Of a stretch of 64,000 nucleotides of DNA, positions 39,733-63,516 are shown one piece after another (position 1 is the first letter of the stretch; the number at the start of each line of letters is the position of its first letter). The position numbers were made by a program, and so were the translations under genes. The notes under the pieces are model-generated. The model was not told where the DNA came from. It worked only from the letters and a program-made list of their open reading frames with translations, and did not search any database. Origin of the DNA: Candidatus Rifleibacteriota bacterium (GTDB lineage: Bacteria; Muiribacteriota; Ozemobacteria; Ozemobacterales; Ozemobacteraceae); contig JAAYVD010000110.1 of NCBI GenBank assembly GCA_012517355.1, positions 1 to 64,000 of the forward strand. The letters run 5' to 3'.

Positions 39733-39796
39733 CGTGGAACAGGGGTTTCGCGCCGGCATTCCTGGCGACAAAGGGGTGGGCCGACGTCGTGTCGGC
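39733..39796 (+). repeat. repeat family A copy (degenerate)
   Basis: GGTTTCGCGCC..GGCATTCCTGGCGACAAAGGGGTGGGCCGACGTCGTGTCGGCC matches the family A consensus. Confidence 0.55.
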
Positions 39797-39888
39797 CTGT
39801 CCCCGTGAGAGGCGGGGAACGACTGGGTCGCGCCGTCTCCGTGGGCAAGGGGGCCCTTTGGCCAATCGGCCGGCCGGATCGCCACGCA

Positions 39889-41112
39889 TCACTCCTGGAG
39901 GCGGGCGAGGCTGGTTTCCAGCTTCTCGATGGTGGTGGTGATGAACGGGGTTTCGGGGTGGTCGGGAGCGAGGGCCTGCACTTCGCGCAGCAGGCGCAGC
40001 GCCCGTTCCCCGTCGTAGAACAGCTGGTATTCCTTCTGGGCCATGAAGTCCTCGTTGGAAAAGACGTTGCCGGGGAAGCTGTGGCCGATGCCGGCGAAGA
40101 TGCGGGCGAGGCGCAGCTTGACCTCGACGGCCTGGGGGCCGTAAGCCTCGGCGATCTCGTAGTTCTCGACCGCCTGGTCGACGTGGCCGCGCATCTCCTG
40201 GAAGACGCCGAGCCAGTAGTAGACCTGGGGGTTCTCGGGGTCGAGCCGCTGGGCGGCCTGCAGGTGGCGCCAGGCGGTCATGTCGCCGACGTTGGGCAGG
40301 AGCTGGGCGATGTAGGCGAGGTGGGCGGGCAGGTAGTCGGGGTCGGCCTCGAGAGCCAGCTTGAAGTGCCGGGAGGCGGTGAGCGGCTGGTTGAGCAGGA
40401 GCAGGCCGCGGCCCATGCGGACGTGGGCCCAGGGGTCGCCGGGGGCGGCCACCTGCGCGTCGTGCAGGGCGGCGAGGGCCTCCTGGTCTTTCTTCAGACC
40501 GATCAGGGCGTAGGCGATGCCGAACAGGGCCCGCTTGTCGGCCGGAGCGAGCGTCCTGGCCTGTTTGAACCAGTCGAGGGCCGCCTGGTGGCGGTTGCGG
40601 AACAGCTCGAGATCGCCGAGGGCGGTGAGGGCGGCGGCATTCTGGGGGCTGGCCTTCAGGATGGATCGGAGGAGGGTCTCGGCCTCGTCGAGTTTGAAGG
40701 GCTCGGTGAGGAAGAGGGAACGGGCGTAGGCGATCCGTTCCTCCTCGGTGGCGGCATCCTTGCGCAGGACCATGAGCCTGGCCAGCATCTCGCGGCCCTC
40801 GGCCAGCCGGGTTTCGCCGAAGTCGACGATCAGGCGGCCCAGGCGGGACATGAGGATGGGGTTCCCGGAGTCGGCCTTCCAGGCTTCGAGGAGGGCCAGG
40901 ACGGCGGGGAGGGTATGTCCGTCGCGGAGGGCGGCCAGGCCCCGGGTGAAGGCCTCCCGGGCGGGGGCGGCGACCTGGGCGGGGTCGTCGGACGCGGGGT
41001 CGGCGGGGGCGGCGAGGGGAAGGAACAACGCCAGAGCCAGGGCGGCCGCCAGAACGGGGAAGGCCGGGAACCGGGTCAGGGGGCGGAAGGGCCGGGTTGC
41101 GGATCGTGGCAT
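39889..41112 (-). CDS. TPR-repeat protein, secreted or periplasmic
   Basis: Signal peptide, then multiple 34-aa TPR-like units (W..LG......A...Y..AL...P). Confidence 0.7.
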   Translation of the reverse strand: MPRSATRPFRPLTRFPAFPVLAAALALALFLPLAAPADPASDDPAQVAAPAREAFTRGLAALRDGHTLPAVLALLEAWKADSGNPILMSRLGRLIVDFGETRLAEGREMLARLMVLRKDAATEEERIAYARSLFLTEPFKLDEAETLLRSILKASPQNAAALTALGDLELFRNRHQAALDWFKQARTLAPADKRALFGIAYALIGLKKDQEALAALHDAQVAAPGDPWAHVRMGRGLLLLNQPLTASRHFKLALEADPDYLPAHLAYIAQLLPNVGDMTAWRHLQAAQRLDPENPQVYYWLGVFQEMRGHVDQAVENYEIAEAYGPQAVEVKLRLARIFAGIGHSFPGNVFSNEDFMAQKEYQLFYDGERALRLLREVQALAPDHPETPFITTTIEKLETSLARLQE

Positions 41113-41144
41113 CGGGTACTTCTCCTGGATGGGAATGGGCTGGG

Positions 41145-42637: not shown

Positions 42638-43264
42638 ATGAGCGGGCGGCGGGGCGCGCCGGCGGGGACGGGGGACGCCTCGGCTGCCGGCAACCTGCGG
42701 AGCGGGGATCCGACCAACGGGTGTTTCGTGGCCCTCGATTTCGAGACGGCCGATCACGGCCGGGACAGCGCCTGCGCCCTCGGGCTGGTCAAGGTGTCGC
42801 CCGGCCGGCCGGTGGAGCGGCTGTATCACCTCATCCGGCCGCCGCGGCCACGCATCCTCTTCACCTGGGTGCACGGCATCGCCTGGGCGCACGTGGCCGA
42901 CCAGCCGACCTTCGCGGAACGATGGCCCGAGGTCGAGGGGTTCCTGGCGGGCGCGGATTTCCTGGTGGCGCACAACGCGCCGTTCGACCGGGGGGTGCTG
43001 CAGGCCTGCTGCCAGGCGGCCGGGGTGGCGCCCCCCGCGGTTCCCTTCTTCTGTTCGGTGCAGTTGTCGCGGCGGACCTGGAACCTGACCAGTGCCAGCC
43101 TGCCCACCGTCTGCCAGTTCCTGGGCTTTTCGTTGCAGCACCACCACGCGGCCGCCGATGCCGAGGCGTGCGCCATGATCGTGCTGGCGGCGGCGAAGGA
43201 ACGGGGGGCGCTGGGATTGCCCTGGCAGCCGCTGAAACCTCCCCGCCCGACGGCACACCCATGA
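42638..43264 (+). CDS. DnaQ-like 3'-5' exonuclease (DEDDh family)
   Basis: FVALDFETAD (Exo I), VAHNAPFDRGVL (Exo II) and HHAAADAEA (Exo III with His). GGAGG ribosome-binding site. Confidence 0.8.
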   Translation: MSGRRGAPAGTGDASAAGNLRSGDPTNGCFVALDFETADHGRDSACALGLVKVSPGRPVERLYHLIRPPRPRILFTWVHGIAWAHVADQPTFAERWPEVEGFLAGADFLVAHNAPFDRGVLQACCQAAGVAPPAVPFFCSVQLSRRTWNLTSASLPTVCQFLGFSLQHHHAAADAEACAMIVLAAAKERGALGLPWQPLKPPRPTAHP

Positions 43265-43401
43265 CCGCACCTGCCTTCCCCACCGGAGTCAGACCATGAC
43301 CGTGTCTTCCTTCCCCACCGATGTCAGATCATGACCGCGCCTTCCTTGGCTTCGCCCGAGTCAGGCCATGACCGTGCCTTTCCCACGGCCGGGCGTCAGC
43401 C
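43260..43401 (+). repeat. tandem direct repeat, 35-37 bp period, four copies, each beginning CATGACCG
   Basis: The units start at 43260, 43295, 43330 and 43367 (a fifth, partial, at 43402). They overlap the exonuclease stop codon and the 5' end of the HD gene. Confidence 0.8.
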
Positions 43402-43402
43402 C

Positions 43403-44251
43403 ATGAACGCCCCTGTCTCTCGGCCGTCCTCCCAGGCCTCGCCGGCCGGGGGGGCGCCCCCGGCCGCCCTGCCCATCGAACAGGCGATCGGCCTGCAGCG
43501 CTGGTTCGACGCCTACGTGGACCGGTTCCGGCAGCCCTCGGGAGGCCTCGAACCGATGCTCGAGCTGAAATACTTCCATTGCGGGCGGGTGGCCGCGGTG
43601 GCGGAAGGGATCGCGGCCGATCTCGGCTGGCCGGCCGACGAGGTGCGGCTGGCCCGGACGGTGGGCCTGCTGCACGACGTGGGGCGGTTCTCCCAGTTCC
43701 GACAGTTCGGCACCTACCACGACCCCGTGTCGGTCGACCACGGGCAACGGGGGTGCGAGGTGCTGGCCGCCGAGCGGGCCCTGGACGGCTGCCCCGCCGG
43801 CCTGGCCCGCCTGATCCGCGGCACGGTCCGGCTGCACAACGCCCGGGCCCTGCCGCCCTCCCTGCGGCCGGCGGCCGGCCGTTTCGTGCGCCTGGTGCGC
43901 GATGCCGACAAGATCGACGCCCTGCGGATCTTCGACGAGGCGATCGAGACGGGCACCCTGCGGGACAACCCCGAGATCTGCTGGAACATGCCGCGGCACG
44001 GTCCGCTCAGCCCGCGCCTCCTCGAGGACGTCGGGCAGGGAAGGATCGGCTCCTACGCCGAGGTCCGATCGGTCGACGATTTCCAGCTGGTGCTGCTGTC
44101 GTGGGCCTTCGACCTGCAGTTCGGCCCCTCCCGTCGCCGCGCCCGCGTCGCCGGCTATTTCGACCGCATGGTCGGCCGCCTGCCCGACGGCCCTCTCGTG
44201 CGGAGGATCGCCTCCCACGTCTTCCAGGCGCTGGAAGGGGATCCCGGCTGA
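43403..44251 (+). CDS. HD-domain metal-dependent phosphohydrolase
   Basis: HCGRV...LLHDVGR (H...HD motif) ...DADKIDAL. Start set at the first ATG after the repeat array (MNAPVSRP); the ORF-track start at 43331 lies inside the repeats. Confidence 0.6.
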   Translation: MNAPVSRPSSQASPAGGAPPAALPIEQAIGLQRWFDAYVDRFRQPSGGLEPMLELKYFHCGRVAAVAEGIAADLGWPADEVRLARTVGLLHDVGRFSQFRQFGTYHDPVSVDHGQRGCEVLAAERALDGCPAGLARLIRGTVRLHNARALPPSLRPAAGRFVRLVRDADKIDALRIFDEAIETGTLRDNPEICWNMPRHGPLSPRLLEDVGQGRIGSYAEVRSVDDFQLVLLSWAFDLQFGPSRRRARVAGYFDRMVGRLPDGPLVRRIASHVFQALEGDPG

Positions 44252-44850
44252 CCTGGCCGGCACGAGGCGGGAATTTCGCCTTGGCCGCCCCGGCGCCCGC
44301 CGCGGAAGGACCATCGTGCGCATCGCCAGGGTACGGCCGCCGCGAGGCCGGCCAGCTTCCCTTGCCGCCCTGGACGGCCGGGCGAAACCGCTCGAACCAC
44401 CTCTGCACGCCTGGGAGCTCGCTTGCCGCCCTGGCTGGCCGGGCGAAACCGCCGTTGCGGGCATCGTCCTGTCCATCGATGGGGCGGAGCGGGGGCCGGG
44501 GTGCGGGTCGGGCCCGACCTGCATCGCGGGATCCCCACCTCGCCAGTTCGGGAAACGGGTCCCGACGGACGATCCCCGGGCGTTGGGTGTCGGAGGGAGC
44601 GGTCGCTCTCGGGATCAGGAAAGGGAGTAGGGAAATTTCTGATGCGGCCTGGGTCGGCCAGGGATGCCGCCGAGCCGGGGGTACCGGGAGGAAATTCCTT
44701 GAGTTTCTGGCCGTGGGGGCATAAAATACCAACCGGTCCCATGGTGCGCCCCCCGGATCGAACCCGAGGCCGCCACGGCGTAAGGCTTTGAAGGACCCTC
44801 TCCCTGACGGGAGTTGGAATTTCATGACGCTGAAGTCGTCTGAAGGAGGA

Positions 44851-46295: not shown

Positions 46296-49200
46296 TCACC
46301 CCTCGGGGGGAGGGGGATCCGCCGGGGGTTTGCGGGACAGGTATTTCTGGTACAGGGTCGAAACCAGGGTCAGGACGAGGGACAGGCCGATCAGCGAGGC
46401 GACCCGGAACAGGCCGCCGAGCTGCCAGAGGTCGTAGAGGAAGACCTTGATGATGGCCACGGTCAGCAGCACGAGGCTGCCGAGACGGGCGGTGCGCGAG
46501 CCGAGGCGGATGCCGATCATCAGCAGGACGAGGCCGAAGACGGTCCAGGCGAGGGAGAAGGTCATGTCGCTGGCCAGGCTGCCGGCGAAGGCGAAGGTGA
46601 GGGTGCCGGCGGGGCCGAAGGCGTCGGCGATCTCGATGTTGACCAGGAAGAAGGCGAGGACGGTACCGAGGGTCCCGAAGACCCGTGACAGGGGAAGGCT
46701 TTCGAGGCCGAAGAGCAGGTCGTCGCGCTCTTCCGGTGGCGGTTCCGGGTCGGCGGCCGGCCGGCGGGTCAGCCAGGAGGCGGTGAGCAGGCAGGCGGCG
46801 ACGAGGCCGAAGGCGTAGAGATACCAGTTGAGGATGGGAAGCCCTTCCCGCGGGTGATACGCAAAGATCGCGGGGTTCAGGCCGAGCCGGGCGAAGGCGA
46901 CCAGCAGCAGGATGGTGCCGAGGGTCCGCCACGGCGGGGCCGGGACCTGCCGGAACAGGTGGAGGAGAGTGGTTCCCTCGATGGCCCAGCCGATCGTCAG
47001 CCATTCTCGGTCGAACTGGAGGGGGAAGAAGATGGTGACGAAGAACAGGCCGACCCCGCAGAACATCTCGGGAATCCAGTCGGCAAGGGGCGACCCGGCC
47101 CGCAACCGGGCGGGCAGCCGGGGCCGGGCGGCCAGGTAGGGGGTGGCCATGGCGAGGGGCAGGAGGCCGATCAGGGCCGACCCCAGGCCCAGGGAGAGGG
47201 AATGGTAGAGCAGGGTGGCGTGGAGGAGGCCGCTGGCGGCGGCGATCAGCCAGGGCCAGTGGCGGTCGGCGAACTCAGTTTTCCCGAGAAAGGGGAAGGC
47301 CAGGAACAGGGCGTGGAAGGCGGCGAACCAGGTGGTGGCCCAGAACCAGGCGTCGGGGGTGAAGGAGAACCGGAACCAGGCGATCTCGACGATGCCGGCG
47401 CTGATGAAGGTGACCAGGAGGAGTTCATCGACCCGGGTGGTGCGGACCAGGTGCATCAGCATGCCGCAGAAGACGGCGGCCAGGAGGAAAACCGGCGTGG
47501 GGTTGGGCTGCGGCAGGCGGGTGATGACCACCAGCAGCAGGCTGAACGGCAGGAACCCGGACAGGGCGGGCAGCATCAGGGCGGTGGAGGGGTCGAGGAG
47601 GGCGGGGACGGCTGGCCGGGCGGTTTCGGCCGGGATGGTCTCCGTGGTGGGGGCATCCCTGGGGTCTGACGTGGCAGCCGGGGCCGGGCGGTCGCGCCAG
47701 GTGTCGGCGAACAAGCTCCAGAGGTAGAAGGCGAGGGCAAAGGCGGCATCGACGCCGAGGAAGAAGGGGATTTCGGCGGCGGTCAGCCGGAGCACCCAGA
47801 TGGCCAGGGCCCCGATGGTGAGCAGGAGCATGGTGATTCCCATCCAGGCGAGGGCGGCCAGCCAGGCGATGCCGACGCCGATGGCGTTGAGGAGCATGAC
47901 CGCAGGCCAGACGTAGAAGGGAACGGCCGCGTGCGAGAAGACGGGGATCATGACCAGCAGCATGATCACGGGGGGGAACAGGTAACCGAGCAGGTAAGGC
48001 TCCGATCGGGGCCGCAGGTGCTGCAGAAGGAGGGGAAGGGCGGCGTGGAAGGCCGCGAACAACAGGAAGAAGAACAACCCCGCCGGCAGGAGGTCAGGGT
48101 GGCCGGCCAGGGCGGTGCCGGTCCAGTGCAGCAGGGTGAGGAAGACCAGGACGCTGCCGGCGAAATGGAACGGCCGCGCGTCGTCCTCGGCGACGGTCTG
48201 CCAGACCAGCAGGAGGTCGAGCAGGAACAGCGCGGTGAACACCAGCACGGGGCTGCTCCCCATGGCGGGGAAGGCGACCAGCAGGAACCCGGGGAAGAGC
48301 ATGGCGCCCAGGGCCATGACGCGGGCGGCGAGGGAGAAGGAGACCTGGGGGATACCCCTCCGGCGGACGCCGGCCCAGGCGAGAGCGAAGGCAGCGGGGA
48401 AGAACAGGAACGCCGCGAATCCCCAGAAGGGGTGGTCGGGCGAGAACCAGGTCAGCGTCCAGAGCCACAGCAGGGCCAGGCCGCCGAATGCCCCGTGGGC
48501 ATGGGTCATGGCCGCGCCGGGGTCGCGGAGGCTCTGCCAGGCGAGGATGCCCTGCAGCAGGAGCAGCAGGGTGAAGCCCTGCAGGGGGCTGTTCCCCGCG
48601 TAATAGAGGGAATAGCCGACGAACAGGAGGGAGAGCAGGGGGATGGCCCGGGGCGGGAAGTCGAGCTGGGGGGCGGGTTCCTTGCCCCTGCCGAGGAAGT
48701 GGTCGGCGCCGAGGAAGAACAGGGGGATGCCGATCGTCACCGCCCCCGCCATCAACAGGTTGGTTCCGGCGTATTTTCCCATCCAGTACCAGTTGATCAG
48801 GAAGGTGACGACGCTGCCGGCCAGGTGGCAGGTCTCGGCCTCGCGGTCGCTCTTCGCCCGCCAGGCGATGGCGGTTTCGAGGGCGAGCAGCAGGGCGAAG
48901 GCGAAGACGGGCTTGCCGCCGATCTCGGCGAAGGAATACAGCCAGGCGACGAACGGCAGCGACAGCAGCGGGGCCCAGCGGGCGGCCGGGGAGGCCACTT
49001 CGCGCCGTTCCCCCCAGCCCGGCAGGTGCGAGATGCCGATGAAGTAGAACGGCCAGAACAGGAACAGGGCGTAGCCCGTCCAGGCGTTGGCGGTGGTGAA
49101 GTAGCGGTTGGTCCAGACCCAGAGCAGCAGGAAGGTGACGAGGCCACCCGCGGACAGCAGGGTGGTCGATCCGCGGGAGAGGCGGGCCACGGCCAGCAGC

Positions 49201-52200
49201 AGCAGGTTGCCGAACAGGAGGCAGGCGGTGATCAGCAGGGCGGGGGCCGCGATGGCGGGGAAGGAGAGCAGGAAGGCGGGCAGCGAGAAGGCGAAGAGGG
49301 GGAACAGCCGGGCCGGGTCGAAGAACTGCGGCTGGTCGCGGCGGTCGGGGCCGGACCACCACCAGGTTCCGACGTAATAGGCGGAGAAGCCGGCGAACAG
49401 CAGGACGAAGGTCAGCACCCGATCCTCCTGGAAGCGGAGGCCGGTGAACAGCCACAGCAGGGCGAACGTGGCGAAGGCGGCGGGCAGGTGCGTCCCCGAC
49501 CGGGCGGCCTCTTGGCGATGCGCGAAACTCTCGTTTCGCGCCGCCATCCGTGGCGACAAAGGGGTATGGCCGACTTCGTGCCGGTCGGGTGAAGCGTCGG
49601 GCGGGTCGAGGAAGACGGGGACGGTCGTCAGGCCGCACAGAAAGAGCTGGAGGGCGAACAGGGTGCCCGGGAAGCCCGCGCTGCCGGGGACGGTGCAGAG
49701 AAAGCCGACGAGGGACATGGCCAGGAGCGGGAAGAAGCGGGCTGGCCAGAAGACGGGGAAGGCGCTGCGGGCGGTGGGCGGCGCGAGGAGGCCGATCCCG
49801 CCGAACCAGGCGGCGAAGGCGGCGACCACCAGGGCGAAGGAGCCGGCCATGCCTTCCCCGACATGCTGGAGGGCGAACAGCCAGAGGAGGGCGAGGGTGA
49901 AGACGGCGGCGGGCAGGTGGGCGCCGGGGCCGTCGGCGGCGGTCGGGGCGCGGAACAGGGGGAGGGCCGCCAGCAGGCACAAGAAGACCTGCAGGGCGAG
50001 GAGGGGGGCGACGGGGAGGTTTCCGGGGGCGAGGAGACAGAGATACCCGCCGTAGGACATGGCCAGCAGGGGGAAGAGCCAGGCGGGGGCGGACAAGGAG
50101 GACCGGGCGCGGGTTTCCGGGGGGGCGAAACACCAAGTTCCCAGATACCAGGTGGAGAACCCGCCGAACAGCCAGGCGAAGAGCGGCACGAGGTCCGCCT
50201 GGTGACGGGCCAGGACGGTGGCCCACAGCAGGAGGAAGGTGAGCCCCGAGCCGTAGCAGTGCGCGTCGCCGCGGTCCGGGCGCGCCGAGGGGAGGAACAG
50301 GGGCAGGGCGGCCAGCAGGCAGAGGAGGGCCTGCAGGGCGACGAGGGCGCCCGGGGCGGCGACCTCGGACGGGAAGACGGCGATGTAGCCGACGAACAGC
50401 ATCGCCCCCAGCGGGAAAAAGCGGGCGGGGTCGAAAACCCGTGCCAGGTCGCGGCGGGGTTGGGAGAGCAGCGCCCAGACGGCGCTGTGGTAGAGGGCGA
50501 ACCCGGCGATGGCCAGCAGGAAGGGCCGGACGGGGCCGCGCAGGACGAAGCCGGCCAGGCCGAAGGCCTCGGGGCCGGACCCGGTCTGGAGGGGGGTCCG
50601 GCTGAACGCCACGAGACTCAGGAAGGTGAGGACGGCGCCCGCCAGGTGCGCATCGGCCGGGCTTTCCCCGGCCGGGTCGGAACCGTCGTCCGACCCGGTG
50701 GCGGTCTGGGAGCCGAGAAAGAGCGGGAAGGAGCCGAGCAGGCAGAGCAGGAACTGGACGAGGAACACGGCGAAGGGGGAAGCGGCCGCCTCGGGCCAGG
50801 TGCAGAGCCAGGTGACGAACAGCATCGAGAGGGGCGGGTAGACCCGCGCCGGCACCGCCAGGGCGGCCGTCTCGTTCCCCCGCCGCCGGGCCACGTGGAC
50901 GGTCGCGGCGAAGAAGGCGGCGAACCAGAGGAGGGCGAAGGAACCGGTGGCGAGTTTCGTCCAGTCGAAGAATTTCGCGAACCAGGCCAGCTCGGTGAGG
51001 GCGGTGCCGACCGCTCCGAGCTGGACGAGGAATCCCCATTCCTTGCGCAGGGCGACGGCCAGCAGGCCGACGTTCAGGAAGGTGAGGTAGGTGAACAGTC
51101 CGAGGGGGTTGTCCTGGCCCGTCGAGACGATGGCGGGGGTCAGGAACCCGACCACCATGCCCAGGATGGCCACGAACCGCGAGTCGAGCGCGACCGACAG
51201 GACGAAAGCGGCGCCGGTCACCAGGCACATGCCGCCGAAGGCGGGCAGCGCGGGGAACACGTCGTAGACCCAGGCGGCGATGATGTCCGCGTAGAGGATG
51301 GAGACGCCGGCCGCGCAGAGGGTTTCGACGGTCGTGGCCAACCCTTTGGGCCGGAGCCACAGGCCGCCGGCGATCAGGGCCAGGCCGGCCAGGAAGCCCA
51401 GGGCCAGGCGCATCTCGAAGGGGATCAGGTTGTTCTCGATGGCGTGTTTGACGAACAGGGACATGCCGAGGAACGCGCCGAAGCCGGCCACCCAGGCGAA
51501 GAATTTCACCCCCAGGAACATCTCGAAATCGAGGGTGGGCCTGGCCTCGCGGCCGGCGGCCGGGGAAGGGGCCTCGCGGTCGGGCGGCGTGGCTTCGGCC
51601 ACGTGGTTGGGCGGCGTGATCGCGGCCTCGCGGTCGATCGGCGTGATCGCGGCCTCGCGGTCGATCGGCGTGATCGCGGCCTCGCGGTCGATCGGCGTGA
51701 TCGCTGCCTCGCGGTCGGAAGGAGTGATCGGGGTCTCGCGGTCGGGCGGCGTGGCTTCGGCCACGTGGTTGGGCGGCGTGATCGTGGTCTCCCGGTCGAT
51801 CGGCGTGATCGCTGCCTCGCGGTTGATAGGCGTAATCCTGGTCTCGCCGTCGACAGGCGTGCTTGCTGCCTCGCGGGAGGGAGGCGTGGGGGATGGGGGG
51901 GGCGGTTCGGGGATGTTCGGGGCATCATCGGTCGCGGCGGCGGGGGGGGAGGTTTCGCGTTGTCGCCAGGCGGGGTAGATCTGGCTGGGCAGTTCGCAGG
52001 CATCCGGGCCCGGAACGGGGAAAGTGGCAACGGGAGGGGTTTCCGGGGAGGCGGGAGAGGTGGATGCCGGGGAGAGGGCGGTCGGGGCATCGTTCGCGGG
52101 AAGGCCGGGCGGTGGGGCGGATGAGGGGGAAGAGGCTGCCAACGGCGTGGATGGGCCGGTGGTCGGAGGGACGACGGGGAGCGTGGGTTCCGTCGCGGTT

Positions 52201-53847: not shown

Positions 53848-53926
53848 GCGCGTTCCTCCTGTGTCGATCGATCTCGGCCATCCGTTCCCCGCGGTCGGTG
53901 GAGAGCCGGACGGCCCCTTTGCGGGG

Positions 53927-53994
53927 CGCGAAACGGGCGTTTCGCGCCGCCATCCGTGGCGGCCAAAAGGCCCTTCCGACATCCTGTCGGTCGG
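53927..53994 (+). repeat. repeat family A copy (canonical)
   Basis: CGCGAAACGGGCGTTTCGCG CCGCCATCCGTGGCGGC ... CCGACATCCTGTCGG: three consecutive hairpins. Confidence 0.6.
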
Positions 53995-54111
53995 ATGGGC
54001 TCGGGCCGGCTTGTCGGAATCCGAAAAAACACTGTAACATGGGCCGCCCGGGAAACTTATATCTGACGGAACGGGATGGATCGGATGTCCTCCCGTCACG
54101 AAGGAGGTCGT

Positions 54112-54870
54112 ATGAGGAAGCAGGCGAACCGGTCGTGGATCCTGGCTGTGCTGGTGCTCGGTCTGGGCCTTGTCGGCCCCGTCCTGGCGCAGGATGGCGA
54201 CATCCTCCCCTCGGACGTGGAGGACACCTCACCAGCCGCGGCCGGCCCGGTGAACCCCGTCACAGGGGGAGACTCCGGAGCGGGCGCCACCGCTGCCTCC
54301 TCCGACGACCAGGAGATCGCTGCCCCCGCGGGTGACCAGGGGACGGGCGCCCCGGCCTCCGGGCGGGCCGATGCGGCCCCGGCAGCTGACCGCCAGCCCC
54401 GCCATGCCGTCAAGAACCAGGTGTCGTTGTCGGCGGCCACCGGCACCGTCAAGAAGATCACCAAGACCATGATCGGCGAGCAGATCGGCCAGGTCGCCGC
54501 CTCCTTTCCCACCAAGTACAAGCGGAAGGGGTCGTTCCCCTATGCCAAGGGCACCCAGAACGGCAACCTCGGCTGCGCCAACGTCGTCTCCGCCGCCCTG
54601 CGGGCCGCCGGGATCCGGATCCCGATCATCCTGGGCGTCGACGGGGTCAAGAGCAAGCTGCAGCAGATGGGCTGGAAGGCCCGGCGGCCGCCTCCGTTCA
54701 AACCGGGCGACGTCATCGTCTGGGCCCGCCGCGGCAAGCACAAGCACATCGGGATCATCGCCCGCAAGGGCAACGCGCTGATGGCCATGAACAATTCCTC
54801 GTCGGGTCGCCGTCCCGACTGGAGTTCCCCGACCTACCGGGCGGTCGAGTGCGTCATGCGGTTGGAATAG
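54112..54870 (+). CDS. secreted protein with a C-terminal CHAP/NlpC-P60-like cysteine peptidase domain (putative cell-wall hydrolase)
   Basis: ATG at 54112 with an AAGGAGG ribosome-binding site. Signal peptide, low-complexity linker, then C-terminal GNLGCANVVSAAL...PGDVIVW...HIGII (Cys...His pattern). Confidence 0.55.
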   Translation: MRKQANRSWILAVLVLGLGLVGPVLAQDGDILPSDVEDTSPAAAGPVNPVTGGDSGAGATAASSDDQEIAAPAGDQGTGAPASGRADAAPAADRQPRHAVKNQVSLSAATGTVKKITKTMIGEQIGQVAASFPTKYKRKGSFPYAKGTQNGNLGCANVVSAALRAAGIRIPIILGVDGVKSKLQQMGWKARRPPPFKPGDVIVWARRGKHKHIGIIARKGNALMAMNNSSSGRRPDWSSPTYRAVECVMRLE

Positions 54871-54886: not shown

Positions 54887-55846
54887 ATGAACCCCCTTCG
54901 CGCATCGCTTCCCCTGCTGTTCGGAATGGCCCTGGCCCTGGCCGCCCCGTGCTTCGGCGCGGGGTTTTCCCTTCCCTACGGTGCCGGTGAGCACCAGGTC
55001 GGCTTCGTGAACGAAACGACCGCCCCCGACCAGGAACTGCTGAACCCCCTGGGACCACTGTCCTTCCGGGTCGTCGGCGGCACCTGCTGGGTCCTCGACA
55101 CCGTCAACGGCCGGCTGCACCACCTCGCGGCCGACGGCAAGCCGATGGCCACGATCGCCCTGCCGGCCCGCGAATCCGCCGACTGGCAGGATTTCGCCGT
55201 GACCGTCGCCGACGGCAGGCCGGCCGCCTTCTACGTGCTCGACGGAGCCGAGCAGCAGGTCCTGAGGTTGTCTGCGACCGGCGAGGTGCAGGGCACGTTC
55301 GGCGGGTTGGGCGAGGAGCCGGGGAAGTTCGTCCAGGTCTTCCGCATCGAGGTCGATGCGGCCGGGAACATGTACGTGGCCGATCGTGGCCGGCAGGTCG
55401 TGTCGGTGCTGTCGCCCGCCGGCAAGGTGCTTCGCGAGATCGACTGGGAGTGGTCGGGCTTCTGCCTCGACCCGTCCGGGAACCTCTGTTACCTGCGCTG
55501 GGACGAGGACGCCGGGGTCAACCACCTGGTGGTGGAAACCCTGGCCGGCAAGTCCGTGCGGTCGGTGCCGCTGGCCATCGGGCCGCATTTCAACCCTGAC
55601 CTCTGGCGGGTCGAGGCCAACGGCGAGACCGTCGTGTCCTTCAACCTGCCGGAGGGTGCGCCGAACCAGATGCGCATCGCCCGCTGCGGCGCCGACGGCA
55701 AGGTCATCGCGGGCTGCCCCCTGACCCCGCCGAAGGTGATGAACCGCTTCCTGGACTGGGACGGCGCCACCTGCTATCTCGGGGTGGCCGATTACGGCGA
55801 GGCCCCCAAGGGCACCTTCGCGGTCGAGCCGTTTCCCTGGAAGTAG
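54887..55846 (+). CDS. secreted NHL-repeat/beta-propeller protein
   Basis: Signal peptide, then repeated ...G.F..P.GI.VD..GN.YVAD-type blades. Confidence 0.6.
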   Translation: MNPLRASLPLLFGMALALAAPCFGAGFSLPYGAGEHQVGFVNETTAPDQELLNPLGPLSFRVVGGTCWVLDTVNGRLHHLAADGKPMATIALPARESADWQDFAVTVADGRPAAFYVLDGAEQQVLRLSATGEVQGTFGGLGEEPGKFVQVFRIEVDAAGNMYVADRGRQVVSVLSPAGKVLREIDWEWSGFCLDPSGNLCYLRWDEDAGVNHLVVETLAGKSVRSVPLAIGPHFNPDLWRVEANGETVVSFNLPEGAPNQMRIARCGADGKVIAGCPLTPPKVMNRFLDWDGATCYLGVADYGEAPKGTFAVEPFPWK

Positions 55847-55955
55847 CGGACCACCACGACGCGGCCGGGTTCCTGGCAGGGCCCCGGCCGCGTTTCGCGT
55901 TGCCGGGGGTCCCCGCCCGTCGTGGCCCATCCGGGGCGGCCGGCTCCCTGGCGAA

Positions 55956-56186
55956 GGGCGAAACCCGCGCTTGGCACGGCTCTCCGTGGCGGCAAGGGGT
56001 ATTTCCGACATCCTGTCGGTCGGTCCCTTGGCGGTTCGCGAAACTGGCGTTTCGCGCCGCCATCCGTGGCGGCATAGGGGCAGTTGCGACATCCTGTCGG
56101 TGGGCCCCCTGACGATTCGCGAAACCTGCACCTCGCGTCGTTCTTCGTGGCGGTGAGGGGGGTATTTGCGATCTCGTTGCGGTCGG
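55956..56186 (+). repeat. three tandem copies of repeat family A between convergent genes
   Basis: Copies at about 55956-56022, 56036-56104 and 56117-56186, each with the CGCGAAAC..GTTTCGCG / GCCGCCA..TGGCGGC / CCGACA..TGTCGG hairpin triplet (the outer copies are degenerate). Confidence 0.6.
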
Positions 56187-56187
56187 A

Positions 56188-58011
56188 TCAGAATTCTGAA
56201 TCGAACGCTGCCGGGGATGGATCGCCGGGAATGAGTCCCGTTGGCTGGTCGGCAGCGGGGTCGGGCGGGGGAAGGTGCTGGCCGGTGAGCCAGAGGCGGA
56301 GGGCCGGTTCCCCGTCGATCGTCACCAGGGGCTGATCGGCGAGGGGAACGCGGGAGACGGCCCGGGCCTGCAGAAGGCCCCGCCCCGCGGAGCGCCCCTC
56401 AAGCTGCCACTCGATGGCCTCCAGGCCGGTGTCGGGGTCGCGGGCGGCCGCCGGTGCCAGGCGGACCAGCAGGGTGCCGGAGGGCGTGGTGGTGCCCTTC
56501 TGCAGGGGCGTGGCGGTGGTGCAGCCCCCGTCTTGCCGGAAGGGGCCGAACGCCGATTCGAGGCGGAACCCGACGGGAACTGGCCGGGCGGCCTCGTCGA
56601 GGGCCTCGACCAGGGCGCGGGCGGCACGGCGGGCGGTGTTCTCGCCGGTCACGCGAAGTCCCGCGCCGGCGGGCTCGGCCTTTCCGCTCAGGCCCATGGC
56701 CCGGAACAGGTCGTTGGCCAGGCCGGCCACGCGGGTCACGTGGGCGGGTGCCGGGCGGGCGCCCAGGGGCAGGGCCAGCGGGGCGCGGTCGCCGGCGCGC
56801 AGGTCGCGCACCACGGGGACGGGCGCCACGACGAGGCGGCGGCCCTCCCCGAAGGTGGCGAGCCCCTTGGCGCTGGCCATGGCCCGGATCAGGTCGGCCG
56901 GGGCGGGCCGGGGGCCGAACAGGAACAGCGAGACGGTGCCGCTGGCCTGGTCGTCGCAGATAACCTCGAGGTCGTCTTCGGCGGCGAAGCGGTCGACGAG
57001 GGCGGGGAAGGAGGACTCCGATTGCACCAGGCGCAGGGGGTCCCCGTCGAGGGTTTCCGTCTCCGCTTCGGCGGGGGCGCCTTCGCCGGTCGGGTCGTCA
57101 TCGCCTGCCACCGCGGCGGGGGCCGCGGGCACGGGCAGGAAGGCCCGTCCCGGGGTCTCGATGGTGAGGCGCCAGGTCAAGGTCAGGGGCCGGCCGGCCA
57201 GCCACAGTTCGCGGGTGCCGTCGGCCCCGTCGCGGGCGGCCAGGGTCTCCTCGAGGGTGACCGTCGCGCCCTGCGGGTCGCGGAGGGTGAGCCGGAAGGG
57301 GGCCAGGGCGGTCTCGCCGTCGTCGTCCACCCGTGGGGTGGCGGCCGCGTCCCAGGCCCACGATCCGCTGGCGGCCGGGGTCCAGGACAGGCGGAAGGGG
57401 CGGTGGTTCATGGTCCGGACGGCGGCCGAGGCGAGAACCGTTCCCGCCCCGTCGGTGAGTCGGAACCGGCAGAGCGTGCTCCAGACCGGGGTGTCGATCG
57501 TCTCGACGGTCATCCGCATCAGGGAGACCTCGTCGGGAGGGCCGCCCAGGAACAGGGCTTCGCCGTCGGGGTCGGCCCAGGTGCGGAGCGCCCCGAAGGT
57601 CAGTCGGGGGAGGAGGGCGGCCAGGGCGGGGCGGGGAAGATGTTGCGGGGAAGGCCAGATGGTGCGGTTCCCCTGCCAGGCGGCGGCCCGGGCATCTGGC
57701 ACCAGGACGAACAGGTCGTGGTTCCCCAGGACGCGGAAGGAGCAGACGATGCCGAGTTCGTTCAAAAACTCCTGCCAGAACCAGGGTTCGGGGTCGAGCT
57801 CCCCTTCCGCCGACCGGGCCGAGGCCCAGGCGATCTTCGTATCCGGGAGGTCGGTGACGATGTTGAAGCCGCCGCGGCGGGCGATATCGGCGAGGGCGTG
57901 GTGGAGGCCGCGGCCGGTGTAGTCGAACTCCTGCCAGCGGGCGTGCGCCGGGGCGGCGAGGGTCAGGAGGGCGGCGAGGACGAGGGTGGCGAGCGGTGTC
58001 CGGCGGTTCAT
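56188..58011 (-). CDS. secreted hypothetical protein with STN/secretin-N-like domains
   Basis: Start MNRRTPLATLVLAALLTLAAPAHA (ATG 58009-58011, AGGAG ribosome-binding site). GFNIVTDLPDTKIAWAS and LEVICDDQASGTVSLFLFGP resemble secretin-N/STN folds. No secretin C-domain. Confidence 0.55.
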   Translation of the reverse strand: MNRRTPLATLVLAALLTLAAPAHARWQEFDYTGRGLHHALADIARRGGFNIVTDLPDTKIAWASARSAEGELDPEPWFWQEFLNELGIVCSFRVLGNHDLFVLVPDARAAAWQGNRTIWPSPQHLPRPALAALLPRLTFGALRTWADPDGEALFLGGPPDEVSLMRMTVETIDTPVWSTLCRFRLTDGAGTVLASAAVRTMNHRPFRLSWTPAASGSWAWDAAATPRVDDDGETALAPFRLTLRDPQGATVTLEETLAARDGADGTRELWLAGRPLTLTWRLTIETPGRAFLPVPAAPAAVAGDDDPTGEGAPAEAETETLDGDPLRLVQSESSFPALVDRFAAEDDLEVICDDQASGTVSLFLFGPRPAPADLIRAMASAKGLATFGEGRRLVVAPVPVVRDLRAGDRAPLALPLGARPAPAHVTRVAGLANDLFRAMGLSGKAEPAGAGLRVTGENTARRAARALVEALDEAARPVPVGFRLESAFGPFRQDGGCTTATPLQKGTTTPSGTLLVRLAPAAARDPDTGLEAIEWQLEGRSAGRGLLQARAVSRVPLADQPLVTIDGEPALRLWLTGQHLPPPDPAADQPTGLIPGDPSPAAFDSEF

Positions 58012-60436: not shown

Positions 60437-60578
60437 GCGTTGCGGGCGGCCCGCCAGCCGAATGCCCCGCGTTCGGCGGGCAGAAAAACGGAGTCCAGGG
60501 GCTGTGGCCCCTGGCGAGGTGGTCGGGAGGAGCGGAGCTCCTCCCGCGATGACAGAGTTCCCAAGGTTTGCGTTCGCC
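60437..60578. repeat. repeat family B, copy 2 (inverted relative to 14899-15052)
   Basis: Its reverse complement aligns with copy 1 along about 140 bp, including the CCAGGGGC..GCCCCTGG and GCCGAA..TTCGGC hairpins. Confidence 0.6.
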
Positions 60579-61439: not shown

Positions 61440-61576
61440 GATCGGGTTCCTCCCTTGGCATGCGGATTCCTGGAGCCGGGAAAGACCGCCCCCCGGAGAC
61501 CACCGCGAGGCGGGCCTCATCACAAGAGTACCCGAACGGCGGGGAAACCACAAGCCGGCGGCCGGGCGGCAACCAT

Positions 61577-61705: not shown

Positions 61706-61841
61706 GCGGCCAGGGCTCAGCCGGCAGCCCTGCGCGGCCAGTACCCGGGCCGGTTCGAGGCCGATCCCGGAACGGGCGCCGACGATGATGGCCCGCGGGG
61801 GGAGACCCGGGGGGGCGGTCGCGGGGGCCTGGGGTCGCGGG

Positions 61842-63338
61842 TCACTCCTCACCGGGCTGGTTCCGCTTCTTGCGGTCGATGTCGTAGCCGAGTCCCCGGG
61901 CCTGGGTGAGGTCGGCCTTGGCGTTCTCGGTGTCGCCGAGCTTGGCGCGGGCCACGGCCCGGCCGAAGAAGCACATCCCTTCCGAGTAGCCCGGGATCTT
62001 CGTGTGGAACTCCACGATGAACCCCTGGTGGGTCAGCAGCTTGGGGAAGCCGGTGAATCCGCCTTCCGCCTGGAACAGGTTGGAATTGCCGCCGCTGCGC
62101 CGCATCTGTTCGATGACCGCGATGGCCGCCGAGAAGTCGTCGGCGGCTCCCTGCCAGTCCTGCGCCTTGATCCGGATCTTGCCGCGGCACATGTGGAGGT
62201 AGGCGCCGTAGACGGCGGGGTGGAGCTCCTGCATGAACGAGATCTCGACATTCCTGGTCAGCGAGGCGGCCTGCCCGATGGCGGTGGTGTAGTCGCGCAG
62301 GGCTTCGGGGACCCGGCCGTGCTGCAGGTGCAGGGCACCGCGGACGGCGAATCCCTCGGGGAAGCCCTCGCGGCCCTCGACCAGCCGGTCGACCTTCGCC
62401 TGCAGTTCCTCGGTCTTCCCCTTCATCAGCGCCATCTGCAGGTCCTCCTCGAGGTTGCGGTTGGCGCTCTCGGTCCAGGCGCCGCCGTACCACTGGGCGA
62501 TGACCTCGCGGTTGTTGCGGCGCTCGTCGGCGAACCCGACCCACCAGGCGGCGAACAGCGCGGTGAAGAGGGCGGCGATGACCCAGGGAGACCAGCCCGG
62601 GTCGGCCGACCCGTCGCGGTGCGACTCGTCGGGGAAGACCTGCATGGTCATGCCGGTCAGGATGCCGACCGCCAGGAAGGTCAGGTCGAGCAGGTTGAAG
62701 AGCAGCCACCAGCCGAAATCCATCTGCCGGACGAAAGTGTTGTTCCGGGAGATCCCGATGGTCATCTCGCGGAAGCTGCCATCGACGATGGCTTTCACCA
62801 GGAACCCGGGGTCGAACGTGGGCAGGGCCAGGCCCATGCCGATCAGCTCGCCACCGACGAAGGCCACCGCCAGCAGGATGCTGAGGATGATCCGCAGCCG
62901 GAACGAGTGTCGGGGCCAGCTGCAGGCGGCCAGCAGCTTGCCGGTGGCCGTCCCGGTGAACCCGCCGGCCACCATGCCCTGGATGCCGATGACGAAGCCG
63001 GCGAGCAGGCGGAAATACCCGGTCAGGGCGCCGAAGAACACGGCATACAGGGCGGCCCCGATCGTGGCGTTCAGGAGGTTGCCGGTGGGAAGGGGGGAAC
63101 CCGGGCCGGGCGCCCCGTTTCCGCCGCTGGCGTTGTCGTTGCCGTCGTCGTCATCCCCGTCGTCGTCGGCCGGGGAACGGCCGGGGCCGGCGGCGTTCCC
63201 GGGGGGCGGGGGGAACGGGTGCGGCGGTGGGGGCGGGGGAAACCCTGGAGGGGGCGGCGGTGGCGGGAAACCGGAAGGGGGCGGGGGTGGCGGGGGGGGA
63301 CCCCAGCCGTCGTTGGAACCGGTGCCGTTCGCCGTCAT
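61842..63338 (-). CDS. membrane protein with a Pro-rich N-terminus, TM helices and a C-terminal TPR-like region
   Basis: Start MTANGTGSNDGWGPPPPPPP (ATG 63336-63338, GGAGG ribosome-binding site). Has a GFPPPPPPPG low-complexity stretch. Confidence 0.55.
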   Translation of the reverse strand: MTANGTGSNDGWGPPPPPPPPSGFPPPPPPPGFPPPPPPHPFPPPPGNAAGPGRSPADDDGDDDDGNDNASGGNGAPGPGSPLPTGNLLNATIGAALYAVFFGALTGYFRLLAGFVIGIQGMVAGGFTGTATGKLLAACSWPRHSFRLRIILSILLAVAFVGGELIGMGLALPTFDPGFLVKAIVDGSFREMTIGISRNNTFVRQMDFGWWLLFNLLDLTFLAVGILTGMTMQVFPDESHRDGSADPGWSPWVIAALFTALFAAWWVGFADERRNNREVIAQWYGGAWTESANRNLEEDLQMALMKGKTEELQAKVDRLVEGREGFPEGFAVRGALHLQHGRVPEALRDYTTAIGQAASLTRNVEISFMQELHPAVYGAYLHMCRGKIRIKAQDWQGAADDFSAAIAVIEQMRRSGGNSNLFQAEGGFTGFPKLLTHQGFIVEFHTKIPGYSEGMCFFGRAVARAKLGDTENAKADLTQARGLGYDIDRKKRNQPGEE

Positions 63339-63451
63339 GGAAAGCCTCCGTTGGTGAGAATGTGGGGCCATTATGGCCGATCCCCACCTGCTTGGCAACC
63401 CACCGGCCACCCCCCGGGATCCGCGAGGAAGGCAGATGGCCCCTTGGGATG

Positions 63452-63516
63452 CGCGAAACTCGCGCTTCGTTCCGCCATCGGTGGCGGCAAGGGGGTGTGG
63501 CCGACATCGTGTCGGT
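63452..63516 (+). repeat. repeat family A copy
   Basis: GCGCGAAACTCGCGCTTCG.TCCGCCATCGGTGGCGGCAAGGGGGTGTGGCCGACATCGTGTCGG. Confidence 0.6.

What the first reader, a model, noticed from the sequence alone, without database searches (positions are those of the whole stretch)
39733..63516. Family A: ~65-bp triple-hairpin repeat, at least 8 copies in 64 kb, all in the same orientation
The consensus is CGCGAAAC-NNN-GTTTCGCG, then GCCGCCATCCGTGGCGGC, then AAGGGG..., then CCGACATCCTGTCGG. That is three successive perfect inverted repeats. Copies lie at about 15876, 39733, 49521, 53927, 55956, 56036, 56117 and 63452. All are in plus orientation regardless of the local gene strand. Three are tandem between convergent genes. 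Two are inside CDSs in frame. This looks like a REP/MITE-like element family or a structured RNA module. The uniform orientation hints at a strand-specific function or an insertion bias.
Basis: seen in the sequence. Interest (0 to 1): 0.7.

Follow-up and report, generated by a model that had tools for sequence, protein, structure and literature searches.

The report
Small mobile palindromic repeat family
This is a real family of about 81-base hairpin-rich repeats in an uncultured Riflebacteria genome that behaves like a small parasitic mobile element: it sits just after genes, or in frame inside them, and always points the same way relative to the neighbouring gene.

Summary
The repeat family is real. 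The window has eight clear copies, all on the + strand, plus two to four degenerate ones. The unit is about 81 nt (tandem period 80-81), not about 65 nt, and it has four helices, not three.

The window comes from a Candidatus Riflebacteria MAG. Full-length copies also occur in a sister MAG (GCA_964554555.1) and on one other metagenome contig. No other occurrence turned up in the collections searched. No Rfam family matches.

Orthologous loci show presence/absence: a 172-nt dimer is cleanly missing from the sister genome. Two insertions lie in frame inside genes, and one of these is shared with the sister genome but absent from the Ozemobacter orthologue. Diverged copies lose base pairs, with no bias towards either RNA strand.

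The uniform orientation is a local effect. The reverse complement of the element is co-oriented with the adjacent gene wherever this can be judged. A clear copy 9 kb beyond the window is flipped, and so are its neighbouring genes.

Best reading: a non-autonomous mobile repeat that behaves like REP, MITE or RPE elements and is a new family of that known kind. The mobilising enzyme is unknown. Interest is modest.

The parts
15853..15940 (+). Full copy, translated in frame on the minus strand. It lies in the linker between the signal peptide and the mature domain of a class-D beta-lactamase/transpeptidase-like gene (15147-16121, minus strand).
   Evidence: R1 scores 83 bits and R2 81 bits. See the translation. 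Pfam Transpeptidase begins at aa 117. The Ozemobacter orthologue lacks the insert, and the sister MAG has one unit at the same site.
15941..16015 (+). Extra 75-nt degenerate unit in tandem with the copy above. Only a hairpin like the third hairpin (CCGGCCTCCTGCCGGTCGG) is recognisable. It is in frame and is absent from the sister MAG.
   Evidence: Weak R1 and R2 hits at 15970-16020. A 75-nt gap appears in the L026 alignment and a 25-aa gap in the protein alignment.
39713..39800 (+). Diverged copy forming the proximal half of a dimer that sits 11 nt after the stop codon of the TPR gene 39889-41112 (minus strand).
   Evidence: R1 scores 53.8 bits. Window 39716-39887 is absent from the orthologous locus L022, whose flanks are 92% identical.
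39801..39887 (+). Heavily degenerate second unit of the same inserted dimer.
   Evidence: It is part of the 172 nt missing from L022. Its resemblance to the consensus was judged by eye. The covariance models do not detect it.
44253..44340 (-). Probable degenerate copy in the opposite orientation. It starts directly after the stop codon of the plus-strand HD-domain gene 43331-44251.
   Evidence: R1 scores 23.2 bits, E 0.02, and R1 was built without this copy. See the alignment. Identity to consensus is 64%. The 56-bit R2 score is circular, because this copy was in the R2 seed.
49501..49588 (+). Full copy inserted in frame (87 nt, 29 aa) in a loop between internal repeats of the 2106-aa DUF2339 membrane protein (46296-52616, minus strand; NLI77686.1).
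   Evidence: R1 scores 94 bits. See the translation and the paralogous linkers of 9 aa against 38 aa. The CDS is annotated as such.
53907..53994 (+). Best-preserved copy, lying in the divergent intergenic region upstream of the amidase gene (52966-53847, minus strand) and of 54112-54870 (plus strand).
   Evidence: R1 scores 99 bits. The orthologous site in L023 holds unrelated sequence.
55937..56186 (+). Head-to-tail array of three units (period 80-81) that share the CGGTCGG junction. It ends 1 nt from the stop codon of the minus-strand gene 56188-58011 and lies 91 nt from the stop of the plus-strand gene 54887-55846.
   Evidence: The orthologous site in L023 holds 170 nt of unrelated sequence.
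63432..63519 (+). Copy lying 94 nt upstream of the start (63338) of the minus-strand TPR gene 61842-63338, in a divergent intergenic region.
   Evidence: R1 scores 82 bits. The gene call is confirmed.
8726..8811 (-). Possible very degenerate copy in a divergent intergenic region. The evidence is weak.
   Evidence: R1 scores 19.6 bits, E about 0.1, and R2 22.6 bits, E 0.02. See the alignment.

Best explanation
Family A is a non-autonomous, selfish mobile DNA repeat. It behaves like REP, MITE or RPE elements.

**Anatomy.** The unit is about 81 nt. It carries a three-way junction in which a helix CCCCTTTG/CAAAGGGG encloses the hairpins GCGCGAAAC-N4-GTTTCGCGC and GCCGCCA-TCCG-TGGCGGC. A third hairpin, CCGACA-TCN-TGTCGG, follows. 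A CGGTCGG-like heptamer lies at both ends.

**Shown.**
- Copies have been inserted, and sometimes tandemly amplified, at different places in closely related genomes.
- After insertion they decay.
- They persist where they do little harm: within 0-60 nt after stop codons, in 5' leaders, or in frame inside disordered protein linkers.
- In-frame survival is possible because the consensus has no stop codon in any of the six frames, and the intragenic units are 75 or 87 nt long.
- Orientation follows the adjacent gene.

**Inferred.**
- Mobilisation is by an enzyme supplied in trans.
- I found no terminal inverted repeats and no target duplication, and the hairpins are subterminal. The polarity is strict, and head-to-tail arrays share the terminal heptamer. 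Together these favour a single-strand, HUH/Y1-type (IS200/IS605- or RAYT-like) or otherwise strand-sensing mechanism over a classical DDE cut-and-paste mechanism.
- I put that sub-claim at about 0.3.
For: **The family is real and structured**
- 88% of cells in four helices form standard pairs, against 39-46% when partners are slid. There are 13 double-change cells against 6.1 expected.
- Stems are 88% identical to consensus and unpaired positions 78%.

**Distribution is narrow**
- An exact-pattern scan of 185,579 species genomes found the full element only in 9 contigs of one MAG.
- A six-frame peptide query against 5.8 billion proteins found 2 proteins, and both of them carry the element.

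**The element is mobile**
- The MAG copies lie at loci not orthologous to the window. The element is the only shared DNA there, at 80-92% identity.
- A 172-nt dimer at 39716-39887 is cleanly absent from the orthologous L022, whose flanks are 92% identical.
- The sites of 53907 and of the triple array hold unrelated sequence in L023.
- The intragenic insert in the beta-lactamase-like gene is absent in Ca. Ozemobacter sibiricus. It is present as one unit in the sister MAG, and as that unit plus 75 nt in the window.

**Copies decay after insertion**
- G:U and A:C mismatches number 39 and 31.
- Diverged copies keep only 13-18 of 28 Watson-Crick pairs.
- Hairpin 2 is destroyed in the MAG's orthologous copy.

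**In-frame tolerance**
- All six frames of the consensus are open.
- The 87-nt insert in DUF2339 stands out against the paralogous linkers.

**Orientation follows the gene**
- It is co-oriented in 6 of 6 independent loci that are flanked by same-direction genes or lie inside a CDS.
- It is co-oriented in 5 of 5 loci with one known neighbour.
- In 3 of 3 convergent loci the element lies closest to the stop of the co-oriented gene.

**Not a known RNA or terminator**
- No Rfam family matches, and there is no T tail.
Against: - No transposase was found in the roughly 85 kb of this genome that I could read. The only recombinase is a phage-type integrase next to tRNAs at the contig end.
- Only one clean empty site is available (L022). 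It shows neither a target duplication nor an obvious target motif, so the insertion chemistry is unconstrained.
- The semi-conserved left GGNNGG appears to belong to the insert rather than to the target.
- An IS200/IS605-type mechanism predicts orientation tied to replication. Here the orientation flips with gene strand within one contiguous 73 kb, which fits a transcription-linked rule better.
- Stems being better conserved than loops is also what a functional RNA or DNA structure would show.
- Placement right after stop codons is compatible with an adopted role in the 3' UTR.
- The MAG copies were ascertained with an exact 25-mer, which biases them towards well-preserved copies.
- Gene calls in the MAG loci are GC3-based heuristics.
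Confidence: 0.78

Rival explanations
1. The element is primarily a functional RNA module in mRNAs. When transcribed on the sense strand just after stop codons, its very stable three-way-junction fold blocks 3'-to-5' exonucleases or ends transcription, as E. coli REP/BIME elements do. Its spread reflects selection for that role.
For: - Ten loci have the element 0-62 nt after the stop codon of a co-oriented gene.
- Polarity relative to transcription is strict.
- Stems are better conserved than loops.
- Predicted folds are very stable, at -33 to -50 kcal/mol, with z-scores of -2.2 and -3.7 on the sense-strand RNA for the two copies folded.
Against: - At least five to seven copies lie upstream of genes in divergent regions or inside CDSs, where a 3'-end role makes no sense.
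- There is no U tract. The genome does have ordinary hairpin-plus-T terminators, for example after 54887-55846 and in Family B.
- Mismatches show no G:U excess on either strand.
- Orthologous genes in relatives do without the element.
- Old copies lose helices.
- Loops and linkers are 80-90% conserved between genomes, which points to common descent by copying and not to convergent structure.
Confidence: 0.12
2. The copies are a minisatellite-like tandem repeat (MIRU/VNTR type) that expands and contracts by replication slippage. It spreads by recombination between existing copies, not by transposition.
For: - Head-to-tail arrays have an 80-81 nt period.
- Copy number differs between orthologous loci: one unit against one unit plus 75 nt.
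- Dimers occur at 39716-39887, in L007, in L012 and in L015.
- Orientation follows the flanking genes, as reported for MIRUs (PMC12548453).
Against: - Slippage cannot create new solo copies at unrelated loci. Here at least 20 dispersed loci in two genomes share only the element.
- The L022 empty site lacks any copy to slip from.
- By my own recollection, which I did not check here, MIRUs lack dyad symmetry. This unit consists of four helices.
Confidence: 0.05
3. The repeats are DNA-level binding sites for a host protein, such as a nucleoid-associated protein, gyrase or an IHF-like factor as at BIMEs, or a chromosome-organising factor. Polarity is set by chromosome or replication orientation.
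For: - All eight clear copies in 64 kb share one strand.
- The palindromic arms could bind dimeric proteins.
- The weak best Rfam hit is to naRNA4 (15 bits, E 0.9). By my recollection naRNA4 is encoded by a REP element. The hit is at chance level.
Against: - Orientation flips inside the same contig together with gene strand.
- Copies are absent at orthologous sites in relatives.
- Copies decay.
- Density is very uneven: 8 copies in 64 kb against 1 locus (a copy with a diverged tandem neighbour) in the 20.6 kb of L015.
Confidence: 0.05

Closest known systems
Rickettsia palindromic elements (RPEs)
   Same: Both are short palindromic repeats, dispersed in intergenic DNA and also inserted in frame inside unrelated protein-coding genes, where they add a peptide segment without breaking the gene (review PMC10969869). 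Here there are two such insertions, both read in the same frame of the element.
   Different: RPEs are about 100-150 bp and specific to Rickettsia. This unit is 81 nt, GC-rich, often tandem, and found in Riflebacteria. I did not test sequence relatedness. As with RPEs, no mobilising enzyme is known.
REP / REPIN elements mobilised by RAYT transposases
   Same: Both are short, extragenic, hairpin-forming repeats that often lie in 3' UTRs, occur singly or in clusters, and are lineage-restricted and non-autonomous (PMC3116915, PMC3337134).
   Different: A REP is a single palindrome of 20-40 nt, and a REPIN is two inverted REPs forming one long hairpin. Family A is one 81-nt unit with four different helices. 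It occurs as direct head-to-tail arrays, never as inverted pairs, and has strict polarity relative to genes. RAYT presence could not be tested.
IS200/IS605-derived palindrome-associated elements (single-strand 'peel and paste')
   Same: No terminal inverted repeats and no target duplication were seen at the one empty site available. The hairpins are subterminal and the element is strongly strand-polar (PMC5027513, PMC6006769).
   Different: Those elements are oriented relative to the replication fork and insert 3' of a fixed tetra- or pentanucleotide. Here the orientation follows the local gene strand and no fixed target was found.
MITEs (for example Correia/NEMIS, ERIC, Chunjie, QMITE2)
   Same: They share small size, high copy number, presence/absence polymorphism, placement in 3' UTRs or operon spacers, and occasional in-frame intragenic copies (PMC10969869).
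   Different: MITEs are defined by terminal inverted repeats and target-site duplications. Neither is present here.
Mycobacterial interspersed repetitive units (MIRUs)
   Same: Both have tandem units of tens of nucleotides located between genes, a fixed orientation relative to the flanking genes, copy-number variation between strains, and a design that minimises harm to neighbouring genes (PMC12548453).
   Different: MIRUs insert at start codons, with a small translationally coupled ORF. Family A sits mostly after stop codons or in leaders, and no coupled ORF is evident. By my recollection MIRUs also lack dyad symmetry, whereas Family A is built of palindromes.

Membership tests
REP/REPIN-RAYT | The unit is a single short (about 20-40 nt) imperfect palindrome. 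REPINs are two such REPs in inverted orientation forming one long hairpin. | tested here: not met
   The unit is 81 nt with four distinct helices. Clusters are direct head-to-tail arrays with a period of 80-81. No inverted doublets were seen.
REP/REPIN-RAYT | A cognate RAYT (Y1/HUH) gene is present in the genome, usually flanked by the repeats. | not testable with these tools
   Only about 85 kb of this genome and short MAG contigs could be read. Pfam annotation shows no Y1_Tnp in what was read.
MITE | Terminal inverted repeats. | tested here: not met
   In the + form the ends are (CGGTCGG)CCCCTTTGCG... and ...TGTCGGTCGG. The ends are direct repeats of the heptamer, not inverted repeats.
MITE | A target-site duplication flanks each insertion. 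| tested here: not met
   The one clean empty/filled pair is L022 against window 39716-39887. The junctions are GACGAG|GCTGG and CCACGC|ATCACT, with no duplication. This rests on a single site with 8% flank divergence.
MITE | Presence/absence polymorphism at orthologous sites, as evidence of mobility. | tested here: met
IS200/IS605-type single-strand elements (PATE) | Subterminal hairpins, no terminal inverted repeats, no target duplication. | tested here: met
   This is consistent with the class but not specific to it.
IS200/IS605-type single-strand elements (PATE) | Insertion 3' of a fixed tetra- or pentanucleotide target. | tested here: inconclusive
   The 5' flanks in both orientations show no fixed motif outside the element. 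The semi-conserved GGNNGG seems to belong to the insert.
IS200/IS605-type single-strand elements (PATE) | Orientation is fixed relative to the direction of replication. | tested here: inconclusive
   Within 73 contiguous kb the orientation flips with gene strand at 44253 (a weak copy) and at about 72.6 kb (a strong copy). The replication direction is unknown, and GC skew follows gene strand.
Rickettsia palindromic elements | Palindromic repeats found in frame inside protein-coding genes. | tested here: met
   DUF2339 carries an 87-nt (29-aa) insert. The class-D beta-lactamase-like gene carries an insert of about 58 aa in the window and about 33 aa in the sister MAG (87-nt unit plus 75 nt). The Ozemobacter orthologue lacks it.
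Rickettsia palindromic elements | Sequence relatedness to one of the RPE families. | not tested
   No RPE sequences were compared. The host phylum and base composition are unrelated.
Intrinsic (Rho-independent) terminator | A GC-rich hairpin immediately followed by a U tract. | tested here: not met
   The terminator scan flags none of the copies. The 3' flanks in either orientation lack T runs.
Any curated RNA family (Rfam 15) | A score at or above the family's gathering threshold. | tested here: not met
   Only two tRNAs reach threshold in the window. The relaxed scan of a copy gives at best 15 bits against thresholds of 36-98.
MIRU-type oriented intergenic tandem repeats | Tandem units between genes, in a fixed orientation relative to them, with copy-number variation. 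| tested here: met
MIRU-type oriented intergenic tandem repeats | A small ORF in the unit overlaps the stop or start codons of the flanking genes (translational coupling). | tested here: inconclusive
   All frames are open. Distances to stop codons vary from 0 to 62 nt with no fixed overlap.

The most novel reading that the evidence does not exclude
The strict co-orientation with the adjacent gene and the placement within a few nucleotides of stop codons may reflect a targeting mechanism that reads transcription direction. For example, the element could insert into the displaced non-template strand or into R-loops at gene 3' ends, through a single-strand (HUH) or RNA-templated enzyme. That would make Family A the non-autonomous partner of a transcription-coupled mobile system not yet described, in a candidate phylum with no cultured genetics.
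Probability: 0.1. Interest if true: 0.7.

Novelty: new member of a known kind. Interest (0 to 1): 0.33.

Why it matters
- It documents a previously undescribed small repeat family in Riflebacteria (Ozemobacter relatives). It shows clear insertion polymorphism, tandem amplification, and RPE-like in-frame insertions that lengthen real proteins: a periplasmic beta-lactamase-like enzyme and a giant DUF2339 membrane protein.
- On the practical side, these repeats break metagenome assemblies (several MAG contigs end in or next to them). They also cause gene callers to extend or truncate ORFs. They could serve as strain markers.
- The one feature that is less ordinary is the strict polarity relative to transcription. 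If it is mechanistic and not due to selection, it would point to an unusual targeting mode.
- Otherwise this is an ordinary kind of bacterial selfish DNA.

Tried and rejected
1. The spacer is 4 nt.
2. The Rfam gathering scan of the window and a relaxed scan of one copy found nothing relevant.
3. The metagenome-contig scan with the 25-mer pattern returned only a chance match, the same Sphingorhabdus contig as in the genome scan. L003, L006 and L008 from the genome scan are also chance matches that lack the rest of the element.
4. A search for homologues of the DUF2339 segment around the insert gave no scored hits, because the candidate list was saturated by low-complexity words. I used paralogous linkers within the protein instead.
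5. Single-sequence folds were inconsistent between copies and only weakly better than shuffles. The structure rests on the alignment.
6. tblastx between the MAG loci and the window found no orthologous loci among the first nine. Orthologues were obtained instead through 90% protein clusters.
7. L024 and L025 end before the informative sites.
8. GC skew follows gene strand, so it cannot give the replication direction.
9. The sequences that replace the element in L023 are not repeated anywhere in the DNA I held.
10. I considered and rejected several other identities: hammerhead or other small ribozymes (no core motifs, no Rfam hit), a CRISPR array (no spacers), parS (half-sites in the wrong order), integron attC (ordinary housekeeping genes and no integron integrase among those annotated) and a tRNA-like fold (the third hairpin lies outside the junction).

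Full report
**1. The observation**

The motifs for the second and third hairpins are strongly over-represented, and only on the + strand. There are 5 and 6 matches against 0.5 and 0.4 expected, and 0 of 100 shuffles reach that. The real spacer is 4 nt.

Repeat finding and alignment give eight clear copies:
- 15853-15940
- 39713-39800
- 49501-49588
- 53907-53994
- a head-to-tail triple at 55937-56186
- 63432-63519

TRF reports the array with a period of 81 and 2.8 copies. The unit is therefore about 81 nt, or 88 nt with a CGGNCGG heptamer at the left that mirrors the CGGTCGG at the right end and is shared between tandem units. RNAalifold adds a fourth helix, CCCCTTTG...CAAAGGGG, which encloses hairpins 1 and 2.

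**2. Where the window comes from**

Exact protein look-ups place the window in a MAG annotated as Candidatus Riflebacteria bacterium (locus tags GX442_146xx-148xx), on a 375,593-nt contig from sample ERR1876141. The window is the reverse complement of the last 64 kb of that contig. GC content is 68%.

**3. Distribution**

- The Rfam gathering scan finds only two tRNAs in the window. A relaxed scan of one copy finds nothing above 15 bits.
- An exact scan of one genome per species (185,579 species) with a 25-mer from the core found the complete element in nine contigs of one MAG, binchicken_co135_42 (GCA_964554555.1). It also found three chance matches that lack the rest of the element.
- The metagenome scan added nothing.
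- A query made of all six translations of the consensus found only two proteins among 5.8 billion. Both carry a full copy in their DNA. One is on another contig from the same sample and one is on an 863-nt contig from another study.
- The family is therefore narrowly distributed. Exact-pattern searches would miss diverged relatives.

**4. Structure**

On 23 copies, 88% of cells in the four helices form standard pairs, against 39-46% when partners are slid. Thirteen cells are double changes against 6.1 expected, mostly in the closing helix and the third hairpin. Paired columns are 88% identical to consensus and unpaired ones 78%.

Mismatches show no strand signature, however. There are 39 G:U against 31 A:C, the latter being G:U on the other strand. 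Diverged copies (39713, 55937, 56098, L004b) keep only 13-18 of 28 Watson-Crick pairs. The palindromes are thus a property of the source copies and are not maintained after insertion.

**5. Mobility**

The sister MAG shares more than 90% identical proteins with the window genome, and orthologous DNA is 86-92% identical.

1. At the TPR gene, window 39716-39887 is cleanly absent from L022. This 172-nt segment holds two units and starts 11 nt after the stop codon. No target duplication is seen there.
2. In L023, an orthologous contig from ERR14373510, the sites of copy 53907 and of the triple array hold unrelated sequence between conserved flanks. No copy is detected anywhere in L023, even with filters off.
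3. The MAG's own copies lie at loci with no other similarity to the window.
4. One insertion is older than the split of the two genomes, as described in the next section.

**6. Copies inside genes**

*Copy 49501-49588.* This copy lies in the annotated 2106-aa DUF2339 protein. The protein has internal repeats of about 110 aa. The linkers between repeats are 5-9 aa long, but this linker is 38 aa long. The extra 29 aa (87 nt) are the element.

*Copy 15853-15940.* This copy lies in a class-D beta-lactamase/transpeptidase-like gene. I read that gene as 15147-16121 on the minus strand, for these reasons:
- A GTG start overlaps the MlaD stop as GTGA.
- A signal peptide follows.
- The S-T-F-K motif follows later, and Pfam Transpeptidase begins at aa 117.

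The public gene call starts inside the element and would lack the signal peptide.

*The orthologues settle this*:
- Ca. Ozemobacter sibiricus goes straight from signal peptide to mature domain.
- The sister MAG carries one unit in frame at the same site. It shares the derived GTCCCGCG change with the window copy.
- The window carries that unit plus a further 75 nt.
- In the MAG's copy the second hairpin is no longer complementary, yet the frame is intact.

*Reading frames.* Both intragenic copies are read in the same frame of the element. All six frames of the consensus are free of stop codons.

*The other two copies the ORF list suggested.* Copies 53907 and 63432 lie upstream of the called starts and are not in CDSs.

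**7. Orientation**

- **Loci between same-direction genes or inside a CDS.** S is co-oriented with the genes in 6 of 6 independent cases: 15853, 39713, 49501, 44253, L004 and L011.
- **Loci with only one neighbour on the contig.** S is co-oriented in 5 of 5: L001, L002, L005, L009 and L012.
- **Convergent loci.** In all three, the element abuts the stop of the co-oriented gene. The distances are 1 against 91 nt for the array, about 20 against about 65 nt in L019, and 19 against about 750 nt in L015.
- **Divergent loci.** 53907, 63432, L007 and L010 are uninformative.

Eight + copies in the window therefore reflect the predominance of minus-strand genes here. The probable degenerate copy at 44253-44340 is reversed and follows the stop of a plus-strand gene within a small plus-strand gene island. 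A strong reversed copy (95 bits) lies about 9 kb beyond the window, where genes switch strand.

GC skew follows gene strand and cannot give the replication direction. A replication-linked rule is thus not excluded, but it fits less well.

**8. What it is not**

- It is not an intrinsic terminator. No T tail follows any copy. The genome does use ordinary hairpin-plus-T terminators, for example after 54887-55846, conserved in three genomes, and in a second repeat family.
- It is not a MITE in the strict sense, because it has no terminal inverted repeats and no target duplication.
- It is not a REPIN, because it is not an inverted doublet of one palindrome.
- No transposase gene lies in the DNA I could read. 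The only recombinase is a phage-type integrase next to the tRNAs at the contig end.

**9. Interpretation**

The best-supported reading is a non-autonomous selfish repeat, at about 0.78. It inserts and amplifies at different sites in related genomes, decays afterwards, and persists where it is harmless. In behaviour it is closest to Rickettsia palindromic elements, which insert in frame (PMC10969869). It also resembles REP/REPIN elements (PMC3116915, PMC3337134), and has MIRU-like polarity and tandem variation (PMC12548453).

The absence of terminal inverted repeats and of a target duplication, the subterminal hairpins, the strict polarity and the head-to-tail arrays sharing the terminal heptamer suggest a single-strand HUH-type mechanism (PMC5027513, PMC6006769). 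This is an inference, at about 0.3. It is weakened by the orientation following transcription and not obviously replication.

A primary role as a 3'-UTR RNA structure is possible for some copies. It does not explain the leader and intragenic copies, the decay of helices, or the absence of the element from orthologues.

**10. Verdict**

This is a real, well-defined new family of a known kind of bacterial repeat. Interest is modest. The transcription-linked polarity is the one feature worth following up once complete genomes can be scanned.

Noticed in passing
window 14907-14988 (+), 60490-60571 (-); L010 2643-2727: There is a second repeat family of about 100 nt, shared with the sister MAG. It has a hairpin GCGGGAGGAGC-TCC-GCTCCTCCCG followed by a terminator-like hairpin CCAGGGGCC-N4-GGCCCCTGG and a T run. 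It looks like a dispersed intrinsic-terminator repeat.
   Followed up: partly
window 1-4300: A phage-type integrase (2745-4136, minus strand) lies next to two tRNA genes (4144-4217 and 4224-4294, minus strand). A Mor-like gene and several small ORFs run to the contig end. This is probably an integrated element or prophage at a tRNA, cut off by the end of the contig.
   Followed up: no
window 15147-16121 (-): The public gene call for the class-D beta-lactamase-like protein (250 aa) starts inside the repeat and lacks the signal peptide. The 324-aa reading, with a GTGA overlap to the MlaD stop, restores the signal peptide. Repeats of this family mislead start-codon choice here. They also create long spurious N-terminal ORF extensions at 53848-54099 and 63339-63557.
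   Followed up: yes
window 51490-51921, 53628-53769, 35347-35670: Three in-frame coding or near-coding microsatellites were seen. A 27-nt repeat of about 11 copies lies in the N-terminal part of DUF2339 and encodes a DREAAITPI-like motif. A 12-nt repeat of about 9 copies in the amidase linker encodes (GSAA)n. A 12/24-nt repeat of about 18 copies lies at 35398-35611. The ENA and NCBI versions of DUF2339 differ in length (2115 against 2106 aa), which suggests differences in repeat number between assemblies.
   Followed up: no
window 55846-55905; L023 6398-6460; L025 1547-1618: A GC-rich hairpin, CGCGGCCGGG...CCCGGCCGCG, followed by TTTCGCGTT lies directly after the stop of gene 54887-55846 (+). 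It is conserved in all three related genomes. It is probably the genuine terminator of that gene and is separate from the Family A array.
   Followed up: partly
L023 4436-4560 and 6471-6645: At the two orthologous sites where the window has Family A copies, the related genome has unrelated sequences of 125 and 175 nt. These are not repeated in any DNA I held. The first has its own hairpin (GCCCGCC...GGCGGGC) and a faint resemblance to Family A. It could be an older, unrecognisable copy or another element using the same sites.
   Followed up: partly
window 43248-43426: A 35-nt tandem repeat of about 3.4 copies (consensus CCATGACCGCGCCTTCCTTCCCCACCGGAGTCAGA) spans the gap between the RNase T-like gene (42638-43264) and the start of the HD-domain gene (43331-44251).
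   Followed up: no
L025 (CAZKPI010001017.1), L012, L002, L001: Several contigs of the sister MAG end within or a few tens of nucleotides from a Family A copy or its expected site. This suggests that these repeats fragment short-read assemblies of this lineage.
   Followed up: no
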